This document shows positions 26,615 through 44,803 of a stretch of 55,110 nucleotides of DNA, piece after piece. The translations under genes were made by a program, and so were the position numbers. The DNA is from Nitrospirota bacterium (lineage in GTDB: Bacteria > Nitrospirota > Thermodesulfovibrionia > Thermodesulfovibrionales > JdFR-85): positions 1 through 55,110 of the forward strand of contig WGEZ01000110.1 of NCBI GenBank assembly GCA_015492515.1, written 5' to 3'. Within the stretch, counting starts at the first letter, position 1; each line of letters begins with the position of its first letter. Under the pieces are notes generated by a model that worked only from the letters and a program-made list of their open reading frames with translations, searched no databases and was not told the origin of the DNA.

Positions 26615-28777
26615 TCAACGCGGCTTTTTTCCTTCCACCTGCCTCTTCAGGTCCTCCGCAAGGGCCTTCCCTATGGTGGGCACGGCCGCCAGCTCTCCGG
26701 CCGTCGCCTCCCTGATCTCCTTGAGCCCCCTGAATCCTGCATCGAAGAGCCTCCTCGCCCTCACCCTCCCGATCCCCCGGAGGGTAACGAGCTGCAGGAG
26801 CTCCTCCCTCACTCCGTAGACGACCCTCGTCCTGAGGAGGGAGACGGCCCTCACCGCCTCCCTCAGCCTGAAGACCCTGCCGATCTCTGCCGCTGAGTAG
26901 AGGAGCCAGTCGGAGAGCTCCACGAGGGTCCGGAGATCACCGGGTCCGATCCCGAAGCGGCTCACCATCCTCTCCTCCGGCGTCTCCTCTATCCACTGAA
27001 GGAGCAACGACGCCGTCTTCATCTCCGCCAGCAGCTCCTCCGAGGGGTACCGCTCCTCCTCCGGAAGGAGCAGCTCCCCTGCGTGGGCGTAGAAGAGCTC
27101 GATCATCTCGTCGTAATCACCCTTCCTGAGGGAGAGCACCATCATGTCCGGCGTATGGGCTATCATCTGGAAGATCGGCAGCGGCCCGCTCCCGTCGAAG
27201 CGGTGGAGGGCGTCCCTCAGCACCACGGCGGTGAGGGGATCGATGTACAGCTCCGAGACCCTCCGGCCGAACCTCGTGGCCGCCAGGGCCGCTCCCTCCC
27301 GGACCATCATCCCCTCGGCCTCGAGAAACCCCGTTATCTCCTCCGCTATGGAGGCGAGCCGTCCGGCTCCGCTCTGGAAGGCGAAGAAGGTCTTCTCCAG
27401 GAACCCTGCGAGCTCGGCATGGGTCGTCGTGAAGAGTCCTGCCACGGATGCGAGCACGTGGGTCCTGAGGGCGGGCTCGCTGCCGAGTCTGGACTCTATC
27501 CTCTCCAGCTCACCGGTGATGTACTTCCTGAAGAGGAACTCCTCATCCCTCTTGCTCCGTGCGACGATCACTGCCTCTCCGTACTCATCGAGCCCCGGCC
27601 TTCCGGCCCTCCCGGACATCTGTTTTATCTCGATGGCCGCCAGGGGGTGGATGCCGAGACCTGTCTCGTACCTCCACCAGTCCCTGATGACCACCCTCCT
27701 TGATGGGAGGTTCAGCCCCATGGCGAGGGTGGTGGTGGCGGCTATCAGCTTTATGCCGCCGGCCCTGAAGGCATCCTCTATGAGCCTCCTCTGGGCATGG
27801 TTGATACCCGCATGATGGAAGGCCACACCGCAGGCCACGCACTCGGCGAGCCTCCTGCAGATCCGTGTCGGTTCAGCGGTGACAGCCAGGACCCTTCCGG
27901 AGAGCTCCCTGAGGGAAAGCCTCTCCGCCTCTGAGAGGAGGCCTGTCACGTACGGAGAGGCGTTCCTGGCGACCGTCTCCGTTGATTTCCGCGTGTTCAC
28001 GAATACGAGCGCCTGCCCTCCGTCCCTGATGGTCTCGAGCGCGAGGTTCACCGCATCCCAGCGGCTCTCCCTCGGCACCCACCTGACGGTGCCGTCGTTG
28101 AAGATCTCTGCACCGTTGTAGAAGACCCCCTCCCTGAGGGGCACCGGCCTCCAGTCCGCCTCCACGAGCCTGGCGTTGAGCCACCCCGCGATCTCCACAG
28201 CATTCGGTATCGTGGCGCTCAGGGCTATCAGCCTGGGCTCCGGACTCATCAGCCTGAGGCGGGTGAGAACGACCTCGAGGGTCGGCCCCCTGTGAGGGTC
28301 TCCGAGGAGGTGTATCTCGTCGGCGATCACGAGGCCCACGTCCCTCAGCCAGGGGGCCCTGTGCCTGACGAGCGAGTCCATCTTCTCGTTGGTGGATATG
28401 ATCAGGTCAGCCCGTTGAAGCCACGGCTCCGCGCTGTCGTAGTCACCCGTGCTCTGGATCACCCTCACGCCGGCGGCCCTGTACTTCCTCGTGAACTCAT
28501 CGTACTTCTCCCTTGCCAGCGCCCTGAGGGGCACGAGGTATATCACCTTCCCTCCCCCCTCGAGGAAGACCTTCAGCATCGCCAGCTCCGCAATGAGGGT
28601 CTTCCCCGAGGCTGTGGGGGCAGCCACCACGAAGGGGGCCTCTCCGCTCAGGAGGCCCGCCTCAACGGCCATAGCCTGAGGGGGATAGAGGTCCCTCACC
28701 CCTGTGGAGGCAAGGACCTCCACGAGTCGCCTCGACCCTCCATATGCCTCCAGTACCTCAATATCCACGGCCTGCAT
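26615..28777 (-). CDS. hel308: Hel308/Ski2-like DExH DNA helicase (archaeal-type architecture)
   Basis: LYPPQAMAV, Walker A AAPTASGKT and DEIH (ADEIHLLGD) are present. Motif VI is QMSGRAGRPG. A ratchet-like central region is followed by a C-terminal HhH (LRGIGRVRARRLFDAGF). Confidence 0.85.
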   Translation of the reverse strand: MQAVDIEVLEAYGGSRRLVEVLASTGVRDLYPPQAMAVEAGLLSGEAPFVVAAPTASGKTLIAELAMLKVFLEGGGKVIYLVPLRALAREKYDEFTRKYRAAGVRVIQSTGDYDSAEPWLQRADLIISTNEKMDSLVRHRAPWLRDVGLVIADEIHLLGDPHRGPTLEVVLTRLRLMSPEPRLIALSATIPNAVEIAGWLNARLVEADWRPVPLREGVFYNGAEIFNDGTVRWVPRESRWDAVNLALETIRDGGQALVFVNTRKSTETVARNASPYVTGLLSEAERLSLRELSGRVLAVTAEPTRICRRLAECVACGVAFHHAGINHAQRRLIEDAFRAGGIKLIAATTTLAMGLNLPSRRVVIRDWWRYETGLGIHPLAAIEIKQMSGRAGRPGLDEYGEAVIVARSKRDEEFLFRKYITGELERIESRLGSEPALRTHVLASVAGLFTTTHAELAGFLEKTFFAFQSGAGRLASIAEEITGFLEAEGMMVREGAALAATRFGRRVSELYIDPLTAVVLRDALHRFDGSGPLPIFQMIAHTPDMMVLSLRKGDYDEMIELFYAHAGELLLPEEERYPSEELLAEMKTASLLLQWIEETPEERMVSRFGIGPGDLRTLVELSDWLLYSAAEIGRVFRLREAVRAVSLLRTRVVYGVREELLQLVTLRGIGRVRARRLFDAGFRGLKEIREATAGELAAVPTIGKALAEDLKRQVEGKKPR

Positions 28778-29042
28778 CCTCTATGTGCTGAAGATCACGA
28801 AACGGCGGGTATCGGGGCTGCAGATGGACCCGCCCCCCGGAACCCCTCTGAAAAGCCCTCCATGGGCTCGTCAACACCCCCTTTACGTTCCCTGCCCCCT
28901 CAGGGGCCTCGAAGAGCAGGCAGACCCCTCTCCCGGAGATCATCCCTGAGAAGGGGGCAGAGGCGAGCCTCTGGATGGAGAGCCCTGAGAGGAACCACCT
29001 GAACATTCTTGAAGTTTAGCAGAGGAGTCCCCACCGTTACAA

Positions 29043-29072
29043 CCGGGGTCAGGTCTCAACATTTGACATTCC
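29043..29072. repeat. Left inverted repeat CCGGGGTCAGGTCTCAACATTTGACATTCC
   Basis: It matches the reverse complement of 30012-30041 at 30 of 30 positions. Confidence 0.95.
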
Positions 29073-29097
29073 GGACCGTTTCTGTTAAACTCTCTCC

Positions 29098-30003
29098 ATG
29101 GCCAGACCTCTGAGGCTCTCCTTCGAGAACGCTGTCTATCACATAACCGCAAGGGGCAACCGGAAGGAGGAGATCTTCTACAGTGACGACGACAGGCGCT
29201 CCTTTCTGGAGAAGATGGAGGAGACGTGGGGGAAATACTCCATAGTATGTTACGCCTACTGTCTGATGAGCAACCATTACCACCTCTTTATAAAGACCCC
29301 TCTTGCCAATATATCAGAAGCGATGCATTACCTGAACGCCTCTTACGCAAACTGGTTCAGGGTAAGGCACGGGATCGTCGGGGCGGTGTTTCAGGGCAGA
29401 TACAGATCGATCATTGTTGATGAAGACAGATACGCTGTTCAGCTCTCCGCCTATATCCATGCAAATCCCGTGCGGGCGGGTATGGTGAAGGACCCTCTGG
29501 AGTATCCCTGGAGCAGCTATCCTGAGTATATGGGCAGGAGGAATCCCCTGGCGAGGCTCGAGACGGGCTTCATCCTGGGACAGTTTGACGATGACCTCCG
29601 GAGGGCACGGAGGAGGTACAGGGCCTACGTCATCAGAAATCTCTATGCAAAGGACCCGGTTAAGGAGGCATACAAGGGCGTCGCCCTCGGTGGGGAGGGG
29701 TTCATAGAATCGATAAAGGAAAGGATGCGATCCATTGGGCGGAGCAGAGAGATCGCCGCGACAAGGGATGCAGAGACGTATACGGCGGAGGAGATCATCC
29801 AGCAGGTGATGGAGCGGGCCTCGGTCAGCCGCGATGAGATATTCGACCGCAGACGTGGGAACATCTATAGACAAATGACGCTCTATCTGCTGAAGAGATA
29901 CACGCCGATGAGCCTGAGGGAGATAGGGGAGATGTTCGGGATGGATTATGCCGCTGTGTCTCAGGCCTGCAGGAGGTATGAGGAGAGGATAAGAGGGGGA
30001 TGA
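29098..30003 (+). CDS. HUH/Y1 tyrosine transposase (IS200-like, REP-associated RAYT-like) with a C-terminal DnaA-C-like HTH
   Basis: HUH motif SNHYHLFIK, catalytic Tyr motif LSAYIHANPVRAG, and a C-terminal HTH (LLKRYTPMSLREIGEMFGMDYAAVSQACRR) are present. Confidence 0.8.
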   Translation: MARPLRLSFENAVYHITARGNRKEEIFYSDDDRRSFLEKMEETWGKYSIVCYAYCLMSNHYHLFIKTPLANISEAMHYLNASYANWFRVRHGIVGAVFQGRYRSIIVDEDRYAVQLSAYIHANPVRAGMVKDPLEYPWSSYPEYMGRRNPLARLETGFILGQFDDDLRRARRRYRAYVIRNLYAKDPVKEAYKGVALGGEGFIESIKERMRSIGRSREIAATRDAETYTAEEIIQQVMERASVSRDEIFDRRRGNIYRQMTLYLLKRYTPMSLREIGEMFGMDYAAVSQACRRYEERIRGG

Positions 30004-30011
30004 GGTCGGGA

Positions 30012-30041
30012 GGAATGTCAAATGTTGAGACCTGACCCCGG
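30012..30041. repeat. Right inverted repeat GGAATGTCAAATGTTGAGACCTGACCCCGG
   Basis: It is the exact reverse complement of 29043-29072 and ends one base before the ATG at 30042. Confidence 0.95.
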
Positions 30042-31115
30042 ATGAGGACCGGTACGGCGATACTGCCGCTGCACCACGGGAGGGCGCCGAGGTGGCTCTT
30101 CGAGAGGATGACGGCCCTCTCGAGGGAGATCACCGCAGCCATCGTGGCCGAGTTCGGCCAGAGGGCGTTCCTGGAGAGGCTCTCCGATCCCTGCTGGTTC
30201 CAGGCCCTGGGCTGTGCCCTCGGCTTCGACTGGCACTCAAGCGGTCTCACCACGACGGTGACCGGTGCGCTGAAGGAAGGACTGAAGGGCATGGAGGGAG
30301 AGCTCGGCCTCTTCATCGCCGGAGGCAAGGGCGGAGCATCGAGAAAGACGCCGGAAGAGATAAGGATGTATGCCGACAGGCACACCGTGGACCCCGCCCC
30401 ACTGATCCATGCAAGCAGGATGGCCGCCAAGGTGGACAACTCTGCCGTGCAGGACGGGTATCAGCTCTACCATCACGTCTTCGTCTTCACGGACCGGGGA
30501 CAGTGGGCCGTTATTCAGCAGGGTATGAACGAACAGAAGAGATCGGCGAGACGCTACCACTGGCTGGGAGAGAACGTGGCGGACTTCGTGGTGGAGCCGC
30601 ACACCGCTGTCTGCTGCGATGAGAGAGGCGCGGTCATCAACATGGTCGCCTCCGAGAGCGAAGGGGCGAGGCGGATATCCACCGCCCTGTCAAGGGAGAG
30701 GCCGGAGAAGGTGCTTAAGGAGATGACGAGGATCAGGGAGATAGAGCTCTCCAGGAGGCACCACATAACGGCTGCAGACATAGATCCGGCGAGGCTGCAC
30801 CGTACACTGACAAAGACGTACGAGAGACAGCCCGAGGGCTTCGAGGAGCTCCTCGGCATCAGAGGGGTGGGACCCAAGACGGTAAGGGCGCTGAGCCTGC
30901 TGTCGGAGATCATATACGGAAGGCCTCCGAGTTATCGGGACCCTGCAAGGTTCAGCTTCGCCCACGGCGGAAAGGACGGTACACCCTTCCCGGTCGACCG
31001 GGAGACCTACGACAGGACGATCGAGGTCATGAGGAGGGCCATCAGGACGGCGAAGGTGGGCCACAGGGATAGAATGGAGGCCCTGAAGAGGCTGGCGAGG
31101 TTCTACGGAGCTTGA
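30042..31115 (+). CDS. DUF763-like protein with a helix-hairpin-helix motif
   Basis: The N-terminus AILPLHHGRAPRWLFERM matches my recollection of the DUF763 family. HhH motif LLGIRGVGPKTVRAL is present. An in-frame TGA at 30033-30035 rules out an upstream start. Confidence 0.55.
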   Translation: MRTGTAILPLHHGRAPRWLFERMTALSREITAAIVAEFGQRAFLERLSDPCWFQALGCALGFDWHSSGLTTTVTGALKEGLKGMEGELGLFIAGGKGGASRKTPEEIRMYADRHTVDPAPLIHASRMAAKVDNSAVQDGYQLYHHVFVFTDRGQWAVIQQGMNEQKRSARRYHWLGENVADFVVEPHTAVCCDERGAVINMVASESEGARRISTALSRERPEKVLKEMTRIREIELSRRHHITAADIDPARLHRTLTKTYERQPEGFEELLGIRGVGPKTVRALSLLSEIIYGRPPSYRDPARFSFAHGGKDGTPFPVDRETYDRTIEVMRRAIRTAKVGHRDRMEALKRLARFYGA

Positions 31116-32914: not shown

Positions 32915-32990
<76 letters not shown>

Positions 32991-33089
32991 ACGGTTGTCA
33001 CGGTTACAGGAAACTCGCTATTCGAGAACATCGTTCTCTTTCGTATGTCCGTACAACGACAGCCGCAATTCCTGCAGAGTAAATTTTGT

Positions 33090-33166
33090 TGGTGCGCCTG
33101 AGAGGATTCGAACCTCCGACCTGAGGTTCCGGAGACCTCCGCTCTATCCAACTGAGCTACAGGCGC
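33090..33166 (-). tRNA. tRNA-Arg (anticodon CCG), CCA encoded
   Basis: The reverse complement reads GCGCCTGTAGCTCAGTTGGATAGAGCGGAGGTCTCCGGAACCTCAGGTCGGAGGTTCGAATCCTCTCAGGCGCACCA, with anticodon loop CTCCGGA. Confidence 0.93.
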
Positions 33167-42823: not shown

Positions 42824-44803
42824 TCACGGCAGATCACTGTAGAGGACCGTCCGATCCCTCCCCTGCTCCTTTGCGGCATAGAGGGCCCTGTCCGCGCGCT
42901 CGATCAGCTGGTCCTTCCTGAGGGCGTCTGAGGGGTACGAGGCTATCCCGAGGCTGGTCGTAACCCTGAACCGATGGCCGTCGACGTCGAACTCCCTGTC
43001 CTTGACGCTCTTCCTCACACGTTCGGCTATCCTCCTTGCACTCCTCGCCTCGGCCTTCACCACCATCACCGCGAACTCCTCCCCGCCGTACCGTGCGGGC
43101 AGATCGATCTCCCTCACCCCCTCCCTTATCGTTTCAGCCACGCCCCTCAGCACCACGTCACCGACGGGATGGCCGTAGGTGTCGTTCACCTTCTTGAAGT
43201 GGTCGATATCGATCAGTATCAACGAGAGGGGGTCGTTGAAACGCATCGACCTTCTGAACTCGTCCGAGAGCCTCTCCTGGAAGTGGCGGTGGTTTATCAG
43301 GCCGGTCAGCCCGTCGGTGAAGGCCATCATCTTGATCTCCTCGTGCAGAAGGACGTTGGAGATGTTGACGGAGACCTGGTTCACCAGGATCTTGAGCAGC
43401 TCGATCTGCTGCGGGCTGAAGGCGTCCCTCTCCTGAGAGAGGGACGTCAGTATACCCTTGAGCCTCGATTCATGGAAGAGGGGCAGAGCGAGGACCGATC
43501 TCACACCCTTATGAGCGAAGGGAAGCACCCGCGTCTTGAAGGTGCTCACGTCGGGGTGGTAGAAGGGGTCGAGGTTTGCATCAACCATCTCGAGGACGGT
43601 GCCCTTCAGGGAGGCAACGGTCCTCTCCTTCGGCCTGATCCCGCCCTTTGCGAAGACATCGTATGAGCGTTCCCCCTTCAGCAGCAGCACCACCGTGCCG
43701 CCCGAGACCCTCTCGGCGCTGTCCACTATCCTCATGCAGAGCTCGGGCAGATCCAGGGACTCCGCAAGCCTCAGCCCCTCCTCGTGGAGGATGTGCAGCC
43801 CCCTGTAGTCCAGCCGTATCCGGGAGTGTATCCTCTGCCGCTTCAGGACCCTGGCGATCTCCCGGGCGAAGAGTTCCATCAGGTGCAGGTCCCGCTGGTC
43901 GAAGGCATGATGTCTTGAGCTGTCGGCGCAGAGCACACCCAGGGGGGTGGAGTGCTCCATCACCGGCACGGAGAGGAAGGCGACGGTCCCCTCATCGGTC
44001 AGATAACCCGGCTCGACACCCCTCTCACCGGGTCCGGCGGAGTAGAGCGCCGGCTCCCCCCTCCGGAATACGGAGTAAACCAGCCCTTCTCCGGTGGTCA
44101 CCACCTCCGGCCTGCTTGAAGACAACGCCCGCGTGAACCCGCCTCCGCCGTCGAGGAAGAGGTTGACCGAGTCCGCCTCCACCGCCTCCTCGGCCGTCCT
44201 GAGGAGCCCCTGGATCTCGTCATCGAACTCGAGCACCTCTGATGAGAGCTGCCCCCTGCCACCCCCTGGAGGGTAGGAGGCGTCAGCAGCCGTCCTCCCT
44301 CCGTGAGCCGGTTCCCTCCTCGTCCTCCTCAGCCTGTAGAGATAGAGGCGCGGGGGAAGGAGCGTCAGTGTGAGTATGCCCAGGAGGACCAGGGCATCCC
44401 CACTTCGGCTCGCGAGCTCCCGGATGTGGAGCAGGGGCTGAAGGAGGAGGACCACCGCGAGGCCCCTTAGGTCGAGGAAGAGCCCTGCGGCCGTGACGGC
44501 GGGGATATGGAGAAGATGGAGCCCTCCGAACCCCGTTGCCTGGTGGAGCGCCTCGAGGCCCGCCTGGAGACCGAATACCATGAGGAAGTGCCTGCCCAGG
44601 CCCCTCAGATAGTTCAGCACGTTGAGGGAGAGAAAGAGGAGGAGCAGGATCAAGAAGGGGATGATCCTCTCCGACGGAAGGTCGTAGTACAGGGAGAGAG
44701 CTAACAGCAGGAGGAATAGATATGGAAGGAGGCTGGTCAGCCCGAATGTCTGCCTCTTCTTCTCTCCTCCTCGGCGAAGAATTTTCTGTACAGTACTTCC
44801 CAC
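42824..44803 (-). CDS. Membrane-anchored GAF-GAF-GGDEF diguanylate cyclase
   Basis: N-terminal TM helices and two GAF-like regions are present. The GGDEF domain has active site RYGGEEFAV. The GTG start overlaps the DUF507 3' end by 67 nt. Confidence 0.85.
   Translation of the reverse strand: MGSTVQKILRRGGEKKRQTFGLTSLLPYLFLLLLALSLYYDLPSERIIPFLILLLLFLSLNVLNYLRGLGRHFLMVFGLQAGLEALHQATGFGGLHLLHIPAVTAAGLFLDLRGLAVVLLLQPLLHIRELASRSGDALVLLGILTLTLLPPRLYLYRLRRTRREPAHGGRTAADASYPPGGGRGQLSSEVLEFDDEIQGLLRTAEEAVEADSVNLFLDGGGGFTRALSSSRPEVVTTGEGLVYSVFRRGEPALYSAGPGERGVEPGYLTDEGTVAFLSVPVMEHSTPLGVLCADSSRHHAFDQRDLHLMELFAREIARVLKRQRIHSRIRLDYRGLHILHEEGLRLAESLDLPELCMRIVDSAERVSGGTVVLLLKGERSYDVFAKGGIRPKERTVASLKGTVLEMVDANLDPFYHPDVSTFKTRVLPFAHKGVRSVLALPLFHESRLKGILTSLSQERDAFSPQQIELLKILVNQVSVNISNVLLHEEIKMMAFTDGLTGLINHRHFQERLSDEFRRSMRFNDPLSLILIDIDHFKKVNDTYGHPVGDVVLRGVAETIREGVREIDLPARYGGEEFAVMVVKAEARSARRIAERVRKSVKDREFDVDGHRFRVTTSLGIASYPSDALRKDQLIERADRALYAAKEQGRDRTVLYSDLP

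What the first reader, a model, noticed from the sequence alone, without database searches (positions are those of the whole stretch)
29043..30044. RAYT-like HUH transposase cassette with perfect 30-bp inverted repeats whose outer end abuts the start codon of the next gene
CCGGGGTCAGGTCTCAACATTTGACATTCC (29043-29072) and its exact reverse complement (30012-30041) bracket a single gene. That gene encodes a Y1/HUH enzyme (HYHLFI; YIHANPVRAG) fused to a DnaA-C-like HTH. The interior has lower GC than the flanks.

Classical IS200/IS605 elements lack terminal inverted repeats. By contrast, REP-associated tyrosine transposases are typically flanked by inverted REP copies, so this looks like a single-copy RAYT/REP unit.

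The right repeat ends at 30041 and the DUF763-like ORF starts at 30042. An in-frame TGA inside the repeat (30033-30035) excludes any upstream start. The downstream gene therefore has no native SD or promoter of its own.

Its expression must either depend on the cassette or be silenced by it. The 30-bp arms could pair in ssDNA or in a read-through RNA.
Basis: seen in the sequence. Interest (0 to 1): 0.65.

Follow-up and report, generated by a model that had tools for sequence, protein, structure and literature searches.

The report
TIR-flanked tyrosine transposase cassette (TIRtron)
This is a real 1-kb mobile-element-type cassette of a kind described in 2013 (a TIRYT/"TIRtron"), wedged directly against the start codon of a neighbouring gene; it is a new example of a known but little-studied class, not a new kind of system.

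Summary
A perfect 30-nt inverted repeat (29043-29072 / 30012-30041) brackets one gene (29098-30003). That gene encodes a Y1/HUH nuclease fused to a DnaA-domain-IV-like HTH. The cassette has lower GC than its surroundings, and its right arm ends one base before the DUF763 ATG (30042).

The interpretation needs refining. The arms are not REP hairpins. The unit matches the published TIRYT/TIRtron class (Di Nocera 2013; TnpA_REP subclass 2.1.2 of Quentin 2018), including the TIR signature GGGGWSAS (here GGGGTCAG).

Homologues down to 34% identity carry related TIRs in unrelated gene contexts. The 24-nt core also occurs without a gene, as 45-210-bp TIR-spacer-TIR doublets and as solo copies, in MAGs labelled with about a dozen phylum-level names. 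The ends are sharp and there is no target duplication.

In one lineage the cassette is syntenic between two species, so it behaves more like a resident RAYT-type gene than a hopping IS.

The left TIR supplies a conserved -35 for an apparently leaderless transposase mRNA. DUF763 lost its upstream region and probably depends on read-through; this is inferred. No empty site and no whole-genome copy count could be obtained.

Verdict: new member of a known kind, modest interest.

The parts
29043..29072 (+). Left terminal inverted repeat. The family-conserved core is 29045-29069 (GGGGTCAGGTCTCAACATTTGACAT). The outer CC and inner TCC are specific to this element.
   Evidence: The core is conserved at homologous cassettes and in 120 genome loci.
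29063..29091 (+). Promoter-like site for the transposase gene. TTGACA (inside the TIR), a 17-nt spacer, then TG-n-TAAACT, ending 6 nt before the ATG. This implies a leaderless mRNA (inferred).
   Evidence: 10 of 12 consensus positions matched, with TG. The same layout occurs in 10 of 12 cassettes of the closest subfamily although the spacer sequence differs.
29098..30003 (+). TIRYT gene, 301 aa. It has an N-terminal Y1/HUH nuclease (HYH 60-62, catalytic Y119 in YIHANP) and a C-terminal DnaA-domain-IV-like HTH (about 231-296).
   Evidence: The AlphaFold model has pLDDT 85.6. Foldseek gives 4ER8 at E 2e-6 and 1J1V at TM 0.72.
30012..30041 (-). Right terminal inverted repeat, the exact reverse complement of the left arm. 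Its conserved core is 30015-30039.
30008..30045 (+). SD-like GGGAGG (30008-30013), 8 nt, then ATG 30022. This opens a 7-codon mini-ORF (MLRPDPG) that reads out of the right TIR. Its TGA (30043-30045) overlaps the DUF763 ATG as ATGA. It is a possible translational-coupling route and is speculative.
   Evidence: Sequence. There are analogous junctions in L004 (TAATG) and L153 (CCCCGGATGA), and an in-frame fusion in L219. Enrichment was not shown.
30042..31115 (+). DUF763 gene, the neighbour whose start codon abuts the right TIR. It is intact at 357 aa.

Best explanation
**What it is.** Positions 29043-30041 are a TIRtron. This is a single-gene cassette encoding a TIRYT, that is, a class-2 TnpA_REP-like Y1/HUH nuclease with a C-terminal DnaA-domain-IV-type HTH. 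It is bounded by about 25-bp terminal inverted repeats that begin GGGGTCAG. Its composition is foreign to the host. It sits in the divergent Hel308/DUF763 intergenic region, with its right end against the DUF763 ATG.

**How it most likely works (inferred).**
- The TIR is the enzyme's cis site. The HTH reads the TIR as duplex, either in ordinary dsDNA or in the stem formed when the two inverted TIRs pair in single-stranded DNA.
- The Y1 domain then nicks at the GGGG/CCCC boundary. The unit moves without a target-site duplication into A/T-rich sites.
- Short gene-less TIR-spacer-TIR doublets are the usual passengers, analogous to REPINs. The gene itself tends to stay put and be inherited vertically.

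**Expression (inferred).**
- The gene is transcribed from a promoter whose -35 (TTGACA) lies inside the left TIR, and the mRNA is leaderless. Protein bound to the TIR would therefore repress its own gene.
- With no terminator downstream, this transcript runs on into DUF763, whose original upstream region the cassette has displaced.
For: **Identity**
- Pfam Y1_Tnp plus Bac_DnaA_C.
- HUH, the catalytic Tyr and Y---NP are conserved.
- The model's best PDB matches are TnpA_REP 4ER8 (E 2e-6, TMt 0.72) and DnaA domain IV 1J1V.
- The TIR motif GGGGWSAS and the HTH architecture are as published for TIRYTs and subclass 2.1.2.

**The TIR is functional**
- 54 of 67 metagenomic homologue loci (34-60% identity) carry the motif on at least one side, and 29 carry it on both.
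- The gene contexts differ: Hel308|DUF763 here, hyp|murJ in L003, ftsH|folP in L004.
The MAGs carry about a dozen different phylum-level labels.
- Those loci hold 59 doublets of 45-210 bp, 10 full cassettes of 998-1231 bp, and 76 solo copies.
- Two 116-bp doublets in one contig are 99% identical with unrelated flanks.
- Ends are sharp, 39 of 69 elements have no TSD, and the flanks are A-rich.

**Resident behaviour**
- The identical protein is found only at this one locus.
- The ftsH|folP cassette is syntenic in two species. The TIRYT is 86% identical, and its neighbours are 80-91% identical.

**Expression**
- The promoter layout is conserved.
- No terminator-like site lies in 28700-30400.
Against: - No biochemistry exists for any TIRYT. 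DNA binding by the HTH, the cleavage site and the need for single-stranded DNA are all inferred by analogy with TnpA_REP and IS608.
- The TIR does not resemble a DnaA box (noted in PMC6006769).
Activity in this host is therefore unshown.
- No empty Hel308|DUF763 site was found. Five sampled DUF763 orthologues, 69-72% identical, all have other neighbours.
- Perfect arms, low GC and differing contexts fit recent whole-cassette insertion equally well.
- Read-through expression of DUF763 is untested.
Confidence: 0.75

Rival explanations
1. It is a classical RAYT/REP unit (REPtron). On this reading, a domesticated REP-associated tyrosine transposase is flanked by two inverted REP hairpins.
For: - The closest solved structure is TnpA_REP.
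- The best NCBIfam hit is REP_Tyr_transpos.
- Some sources name homologues 'REP element-mobilizing transposase RayT'.
- Gene-less inverted doublets exist, like REPINs.
Against: - Each arm alone is not a palindrome (z -0.5 to -1.6), and there is no GTAG or CGTC tag.
- The NCBIfam score of 70.4 is below the 80-bit cut-off.
- The protein carries an extra HTH domain that canonical RAYTs lack.
- The literature separates these as TIRYTs, and found no REP-like sequences next to subclass 2.1 genes.
Confidence: 0.08
2. It is an autonomous, currently active insertion sequence. The whole 1-kb unit recently transposed or was horizontally acquired into the DUF763 leader, as an IS with TIRs driven by a Y1 enzyme.
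For: - The arms are perfect over 30 nt.
- GC is 7 points, and GC3 10-13 points, below the neighbours.
- Related cassettes sit in unrelated contexts.
- Subclass 2.1.2 has a patchy, HGT-like taxonomic distribution.
- Many homologues lie on very short contigs, as repeats do.
- The insertion disrupts a promoter-to-ATG junction, which looks recent rather than adapted.
Against: - The identical protein appears only at this locus.
- P0013, P0024 and P0032 each occur in one context only.
- The ftsH|folP cassette has diverged in step with its neighbours.
- Only 10 full cassettes were seen against 59 doublets and 76 solo TIRs in genomes.
- Class 2 genes have low copy number within a genome.
Confidence: 0.3
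3. It is a fixed, domesticated regulatory module. On this reading, the protein acts as a DNA-binding regulator through its DnaA-like HTH on the two TIR operators, controlling DUF763 and/or Hel308 and no longer moving DNA.
For: - The cassette is kept syntenically in another lineage, with neighbouring genes' ends embedded in the TIRs. The ftsH stop lies inside the left TIR, and the folP start is called inside the right TIR.
- The TIR overlaps the promoter's -35.
Against: - HUH and the catalytic Tyr are invariant across the family, which argues for retained nuclease activity.
- The neighbouring genes differ between cassettes.
- Dispersed gene-less TIR copies need a mobilising activity.
Confidence: 0.07

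Closest known systems
TIRYT / TIRtron (Di Nocera, De Gregorio and Rocco 2013, BMC Genomics 14:522), equivalent to TnpA_REP subclass 2.1.2 (Quentin et al. 2018, BMC Genomics 19:475)
   Same: - A RAYT-like Y1/HUH protein, longer than RAYTs, with a C-terminal Bac_DnaA_C-type HTH.
- The gene is bracketed at short distance by long TIRs that carry GGGGWSAS.
- The same TIRs form moderately abundant single, dimeric or grouped repeats in some genomes.
- Copy number of the gene is low.
   Different: - Nothing essential differs.
- The host here is an uncultured, probably Nitrospirota, MAG.
- The TIR abuts a neighbour's start codon.
RAYT-REPIN systems (Nunvar 2010; Bertels and Rainey 2011; E. coli TnpA_REP structure 4ER8)
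   Same: - The same fold and the class-2 Y---NP motif.
- One resident gene flanked by inverted copies of its cis element.
- Gene-less inverted doublets are dispersed in intergenic DNA, often just after stop codons (25 of 126 ends within 12 nt).
- Vertical inheritance in at least one lineage.
   Different: - The cis element is a 25-bp non-palindromic TIR rather than a GTAG-tagged hairpin.
- There is an extra dsDNA-type HTH domain.
- The NCBIfam RAYT model scores below its cut-off.
IS200/IS605 (IS608, ISDra2 TnpA)
   Same: - The Y1/HUH catalytic domain (Pfam Y1_Tnp; Foldseek hits 2XQC, 2VJV).
- No target-site duplication.
   Different: - IS200/IS605 elements have subterminal imperfect hairpins and no TIRs.
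- They are usually multi-copy with near-identical copies and often carry tnpB.
- Their Y motif differs and they have no HTH domain.

Membership tests
TIRYT/TIRtron (TnpA_REP subclass 2.1.2) | Y1 nuclease with an HUH motif, a catalytic Tyr and the class-2 Y---NP signature | tested here: met
   HYH at 60-62 and YIHANP at 119-124. H60, Y61, H62, Y119 and P124 are invariant, and N123 nearly so, in 24 homologues. Pfam Y1_Tnp E 4e-13.
TIRYT/TIRtron (TnpA_REP subclass 2.1.2) | Gene bracketed by long terminal inverted repeats unrelated to GTAG REPs | tested here: met
   Perfect 30-nt arms lie 25 nt before the ATG and 8 nt after the stop.
TIRYT/TIRtron (TnpA_REP subclass 2.1.2) | TIR carries the motif GGGGWSAS | tested here: met
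   GGGGTCAG at 29045-29052, and its complement at 30032-30039. The motif is quoted.
TIRYT/TIRtron (TnpA_REP subclass 2.1.2) | C-terminal HTH extension (Bac_DnaA_C, HTH_23 or HTH_28) | tested here: met
   Bac_DnaA_C at 231-293, E 8e-13. 1J1V by sequence and by fold, TMt 0.72.
TIRYT/TIRtron (TnpA_REP subclass 2.1.2) | The enzyme binds or cleaves its TIR | not testable with these tools
   No biochemistry was found in the literature for any TIRYT.
RAYT/REPtron | Flanking repeats are short self-complementary REP hairpins with a GTAG (or similar) tag | tested here: not met
   Single arms fold at -3.5 to -4.6 kcal/mol, z -0.5 to -1.6 against shuffles. There is no GTAG in the arm.
RAYT/REPtron | Passes NCBIfam equivalog NF047646 (REP_Tyr_transpos) | tested here: not met
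   70.4 bits against a cut-off of 80.
RAYT/REPtron | Single copy per genome, vertically inherited, and flanking repeat abundant genome-wide | tested here: inconclusive
- Family level: synteny in the ftsH|folP lineage, and many gene-less copies in other genomes.
IS200/IS605 | Subterminal hairpins without TIRs; multi-copy near-identical elements; often tnpB | tested here: not met
   TIRs are present. There is no tnpB-like ORF in the cassette. The identical protein occurs at one locus only.
DDE-type IS with TIRs | DDE transposase and a fixed-length target-site duplication | tested here: not met
   There is no DDE domain. 39 of 69 elements have no direct repeat at their ends, and the rest share only 1-4 nt of A/T-rich sequence.

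The most novel reading that the evidence does not exclude
The roughly 25-nt TIR (GGGGTCAGGTCTCAACATTTGACAT) may be the cis element of a very widespread TIRYT and TIR-doublet partnership. This would be the functional counterpart of RAYT-REPIN. The difference is that a DnaA-type HTH would read the element as duplex DNA, and the sequence would be held almost invariant across about a dozen phyla while the proteins diverge to about 36% identity.

Within that system, the TIR would double as an expression module. It would give an inward -35 for a leaderless transposase mRNA. It would also give an outward ATG whose mini-ORF can couple translation into the adjacent host gene, as at DUF763 here and at folP in L004 and L219.
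Probability: 0.3. Interest if true: 0.55.

Novelty: new member of a known kind. Interest (0 to 1): 0.3.

Why it matters
For this window, the result assigns the feature to a named class, so it need not be treated as a new system.

More broadly, TIRYTs are common: 4315 homologues at E<=1e-5, and subclass 2.1 occurs in 14.9% of strains in Quentin et al. Yet I found only two papers that name them, and no biochemistry.

The data gathered here give concrete substrates for a first biochemical test of how a Y1/HUH enzyme can use terminal inverted repeats instead of hairpins:
- a nearly invariant 24-nt TIR;
- sharp GGGG/CCCC ends with no target duplication;
- REPIN-like doublets;
- a conserved promoter embedded in the TIR.

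The DUF763 junction is a natural case for asking how a host gene stays expressed after losing its promoter to such an insertion.

Tried and rejected
- **Empty site.** The closest DUF763 orthologues are at most 73% identical. The five looked up (69-72% identical) have other neighbours: SIS/CBS, PLD, an FMN-oxidoreductase fragment, a YHS protein, and a small ORF. No Hel308|DUF763 locus without the cassette could be found. I ran no further search on Hel308.
- **Whole-genome copy number.** This remains untested.
- **Viral contigs.** No match to the TIR.
- **PDB by sequence.** The N-terminal domain gave no hit, even with a profile. Only the fold search found TnpA_REP.
- **RNA structure at the tnp-stop/DUF763-start junction.** Not better than shuffles (z -0.21), so no special riboregulatory hairpin is claimed.
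- **Outward promoter in the right TIR.** TTGAGA is a 5-of-6 match to a -35, but no -10 follows, so this was rejected (sequence).
- **Mini-ORF coupling as a general rule.** In the survey listing (my count), about 11 of 43 non-fused cases have the mini-ORF stop within 4 nt of a downstream start. Several of those genes have their own SD, and no proper null model was built. It is kept only as a speculation.
- **Abutment to start codons as a family trait.** Rejected. Of 126 element ends, 11 have an outward start within 12 nt and none at offset 0. By contrast, 25 lie within 12 nt after a stop codon.
- **Half-site flip.** I considered that GGTCAGGTC versus GGTCAGACC variants reflect an inverted half-site. 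The variable dinucleotide takes many values (GT, AC, AT, TT, CC, GG), so this was dropped.
- **The 253-bp duplication in L001 as a transposition product.** Rejected, because it includes 8 nt of DUF763 and its junction lies in microhomology.
Full report
**1. The observation**

The sequence is as described. CCGGGGTCAGGTCTCAACATTTGACATTCC occupies 29043-29072, and its exact reverse complement occupies 30012-30041. The repeat can be extended to 33 nt with one mismatch. None of 100 dinucleotide-preserving shuffles of the window produced two matches. There is no third copy in the 55 kb. A search with the 16-nt core and three mismatches found only one chance-level hit, at 44241.

The only gene between the arms is 29098-30003 (+), 301 aa. 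It matches Pfam Y1_Tnp (residues 10-122) and Bac_DnaA_C (231-293). The cassette has GC 0.545, against 0.616 for the rest of the window. Its GC3 is 0.71, against 0.81-0.84 for the flanking genes.

The next gene is DUF763 (30042-31115, Pfam E 4e-137). It begins one base after the right arm. Orthologues begin MPKTG/MRKTG where the window has MRTG, so this is the real start. The in-frame TGA at 30033-30035 is there.

**2. What the protein is**

In an alignment of 24 homologues at 57-100% identity, the HUH histidines (H60, H62), the catalytic tyrosine (Y119) and much of the HTH are invariant. The tyrosine motif is YIHANP. That is the Y---NP signature Quentin et al. give for all class 2 (TnpA_REP-like) Y1 proteins.

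An AlphaFold model (mean pLDDT 85.6) matches E. coli TnpA_REP bound to a REP hairpin best (4ER8, E 2e-6, target TM 0.72). Next come the ISDra2, IS200 and IS608 transposases. The C-terminal domain matches DnaA domain IV bound to a DnaA box (1J1V, TM 0.72, rmsd 1.4 Å). It also matches 1J1V by sequence.

NCBI's RAYT equivalog model is the best NCBIfam hit but falls below its cut-off (70.4 against 80 bits).

**3. The arms are a family-wide cis element**

The protein family is large: 4315 database proteins at E<=1e-5. All 120 listed share the two-domain architecture, and those that carry a name are from Nitrospirota, Desulfobacterota/Deltaproteobacteria, Acidobacteriota and unclassified bacterial MAGs.

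At homologous loci the gene is again bracketed by inverted repeats with the same core, while the neighbouring genes differ:
- L003 (72% identity) lies between a small ORF and murJ.
- L004 (63%) lies between ftsH and folP.

In 67 metagenomic loci of relatives at 34-60% identity with enough flank, a GGGGWSAS-type motif lies beside the gene on at least one side in 54, and on both sides in 29. The best bracketing repeat typically begins GGGGTCAG-NN-CT.

**4. The class is already described**

Di Nocera et al. (2013, PMC3733652) named RAYT-like genes flanked by long TIRs 'TIRtrons', and their proteins 'TIRYTs'. They noted the shared TIR motif GGGGWSAS. They also noted that some TIRs form moderately abundant families of single, dimeric or grouped repeats.

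Quentin et al. (2018, PMC6006769) place 20 of the 26 described TIRYTs in TnpA_REP subclass 2.1. Its subgroup 2.1.2 carries Bac_DnaA_C, HTH_23 or HTH_28 C-terminal domains and has a patchy taxonomic distribution. They found no REP-like hairpins beside these genes, and observed that the TIR motif does not resemble a DnaA box.

GGGGTCAG at 29045-29052 fits GGGGWSAS exactly. These are the only two works in the searchable library that use the terms. The TIR sequence itself appears in no relevant paper text.

A single arm does not form a hairpin better than shuffled sequence. So 'REP' is the wrong word for it, and 'TIR' is the right one.

**5. Gene-less copies and mobility**

A scan of one genome per species for GGGGTCAGGTCTCAAYATTTRACA stopped at its 120-locus limit. 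The hits are in MAGs labelled:
- Atribacterota, Clostridia/Eubacteriales, Nitrospirota, and Desulfobacterota and other 'delta' groups;
- Aerophobetes, Aminicenantes, Dadabacteria, Stahlbacteria, Cloacimonadota and Omnitrophota;
- Campylobacterales, Bacteroidales families, Spirochaetes and Dehalococcoidales;
- a Kazan bacterium and one Woesearchaeota bin.

Allowing five mismatches to find partners, these loci contain three kinds of element:
- 59 TIR-spacer-TIR doublets of 45-210 bp, most commonly about 80 bp;
- 10 full cassettes of 998-1231 bp with a TIRYT gene, whose proteins are 36-61% identical to the window's;
- 76 solo TIRs. Of the 66 good matches, 52 have no partner within 1.6 kb.

Several MAGs have at least 4-8 TIR loci. 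In four of them a TIRYT gene flanked by the same TIR is among those loci: DAOVGU01 (L145), CAYMYS01 (L119), JAQYWL01 (L100) and CAZIXA01 (L135).

Element ends are sharp at GGGG...CCCC. The outside flanks are A-rich (40-50% A at each of the eight positions). 39 of 69 elements share no direct repeat at their ends, so there is no DDE-style target duplication.

Two 116-bp doublets 1.1 kb apart in one Eubacteriales contig are 99% identical over the element plus 5 nt, with otherwise unrelated flanks. This is the clearest sign that a doublet copies as a unit.

One fifth of element ends (25 of 126) lie within 12 nt after the stop codon of a long ORF. The figure for random positions is 0.9%. This is REP-like placement.

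**6. Resident or hopping?**

For four TIRYT proteins that occur on several contigs, every contig shows the same context.

P0013 (L004) and P0032 (L219) sit at the same place, between ftsH and folP, in two related species. The two proteins are 86% identical. The neighbouring RNase PH, FtsH, FolP and inositol phosphatase are 90, 91, 80 and 85% identical. That cassette therefore predates the split and has evolved in step with its neighbours.

At that locus the ftsH reading frame ends inside the left TIR. In L219, the folP start is called at the ATG inside the right TIR.

This is the RAYT pattern: a stable single gene with dispersed small repeats. It is not the pattern of a multi-copy IS. It agrees with the low intragenomic copy number reported for class 2.

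For the window's own cassette, the low GC and perfect arms suggest a younger arrival. I could not decide this. No relative closer than about 73% identity was available, and five sampled DUF763 orthologues (69-72% identical) have different neighbours.

**7. Expression (inferred)**

The left TIR contains TTGACA (29063-29068). Seventeen bases later comes TG-n-TAAACT (29086-29091), and the ATG follows six bases after that. There is no SD.

In 10 of 12 cassettes of the closest subfamily, the same layout recurs although the spacer sequence is not conserved. The layout is TTGACA in the TIR, a 17-nt spacer, TAnnnT (mostly TAAnnT) usually preceded by TG, then 6 or 9 nt to the ATG. This is what a promoter for a leaderless mRNA looks like. 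It also places the -35 inside the presumed protein-binding site, the usual arrangement for transposase autoregulation. Both points are inferences.

No terminator-like site lies between 28700 and 30400, so this transcript should continue into DUF763. A transcript from this promoter lacks the left arm. Arm-to-arm RNA pairing would therefore need a start upstream of 29043.

**8. The DUF763 junction**

Absence of an SD is not informative here. By a crude count, only 14 of 46 long ORFs in the window have one.

Three of five sampled DUF763 orthologues have a -10 box 6-7 nt before the ATG and no SD:
- L213: TATAAT-agagct-ATG;
- L222: TATAAT-ttatta-ATG;
- L221: TACAAT-taactat-ATG.

The cassette now occupies exactly that position. 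What DUF763 has lost is most likely its promoter. The gene is intact in all three assemblies of this population.

One possible rescue route is visible in the sequence. GGGAGG (30008-30013) lies 8 nt before ATG 30022. That ATG opens a 7-codon ORF reading out of the TIR, and its TGA overlaps the DUF763 ATG as ATGA. Three other loci show related junctions:
- In L004 the same TIR-borne ORF ends TAATG on the folP start.
- In L153 the junction is again CCCCGGATGA.
- In L219 the ORF is fused in frame to folP.

Across all loci I could not show enrichment, so this stays a hypothesis. Direct abutment to a start codon is not a family trait: none of the 126 surveyed ends showed it.

**9. Verdict**

The feature is real and correctly located. 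It is a TIRtron encoding a TIRYT of TnpA_REP subclass 2.1.2, that is, a new member of a known but biochemically uncharacterised class.

It is wrong on the REP nature of the arms, and it missed that the class is already named.

The step from anatomy to mechanism rests on analogy and comparative anatomy only. That step covers an HTH reading the duplex TIR, a Y1 nick at the GGGG boundary, doublets as the mobile passengers, and read-through expression of DUF763.

Interest is modest for the finding itself. The family-level picture assembled here would be worth a focused study.

Noticed in passing
L001 10689-11194 (same locus as window 29786-30050): The ENA assembly of the same population is 99.98% identical upstream. 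It carries a 253-bp tandem duplication of the cassette's 3' end, the right TIR and the first 8 nt of DUF763. This creates a 64-aa DnaA_C-only ORF and a second right TIR. The junction lies in microhomology. The window and the NCBI MAG contig L002 lack the duplication. It could be a real strain variant or an assembly artefact.
   Followed up: partly
L004 5947-6972 and L219 2947-3965: In the ftsH|folP lineage the ftsH reading frame ends inside the left TIR (…E G V R S Q Y L T stop). In L219 the folP start is called at the ATG inside the right TIR. The cassette is syntenic in two species whose neighbouring proteins are 80-91% identical.
   Followed up: partly
L213 3975-4003, L221 3470-3503, L222 3480-3503: DUF763 orthologues that head their own transcription unit have a near-consensus -10 box 6-7 nt before the ATG and no SD. 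This suggests leaderless mRNAs are common for this gene and lineage.
   Followed up: no
L096 about 3330, L143 about 2560, L201 about 700: Degenerate partner TIRs repeatedly lack the same four bases (GAGACC[TGAC]CCC). This looks like slippage between the two GACC/TGAC repeats in the TIR tip.
   Followed up: no
L092 6569-6684 and 7663-7778: Two 116-bp TIR doublets of a variant TIR (GGGGTCGCATCTTAACATTTGACAT) are 99% identical and lie 1.1 kb apart, with unrelated flanks apart from a shared TAATA on the left.
   Followed up: partly
L150 567-590: One exact TIR 24-mer lies on a 2.8-kb contig binned as a Woesearchaeota archaeon. This is either cross-domain spread or a binning error.
   Followed up: no
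L090, L102, L112, L120, L134, L152, L159, L176, L181: Atribacterota doublets keep a constant length of 81-83 bp and a longer arm (…GACATAACTT / AAGTTATGTC…) across different MAGs, while the loop sequence varies. This suggests a lineage-specific doublet family.
   Followed up: no
window 32915-33166 (-): tRNA-Lys(CTT) and tRNA-Arg(CCG) genes lie about 2 kb downstream of the DUF763 region. They are unrelated to the cassette.
   Followed up: no
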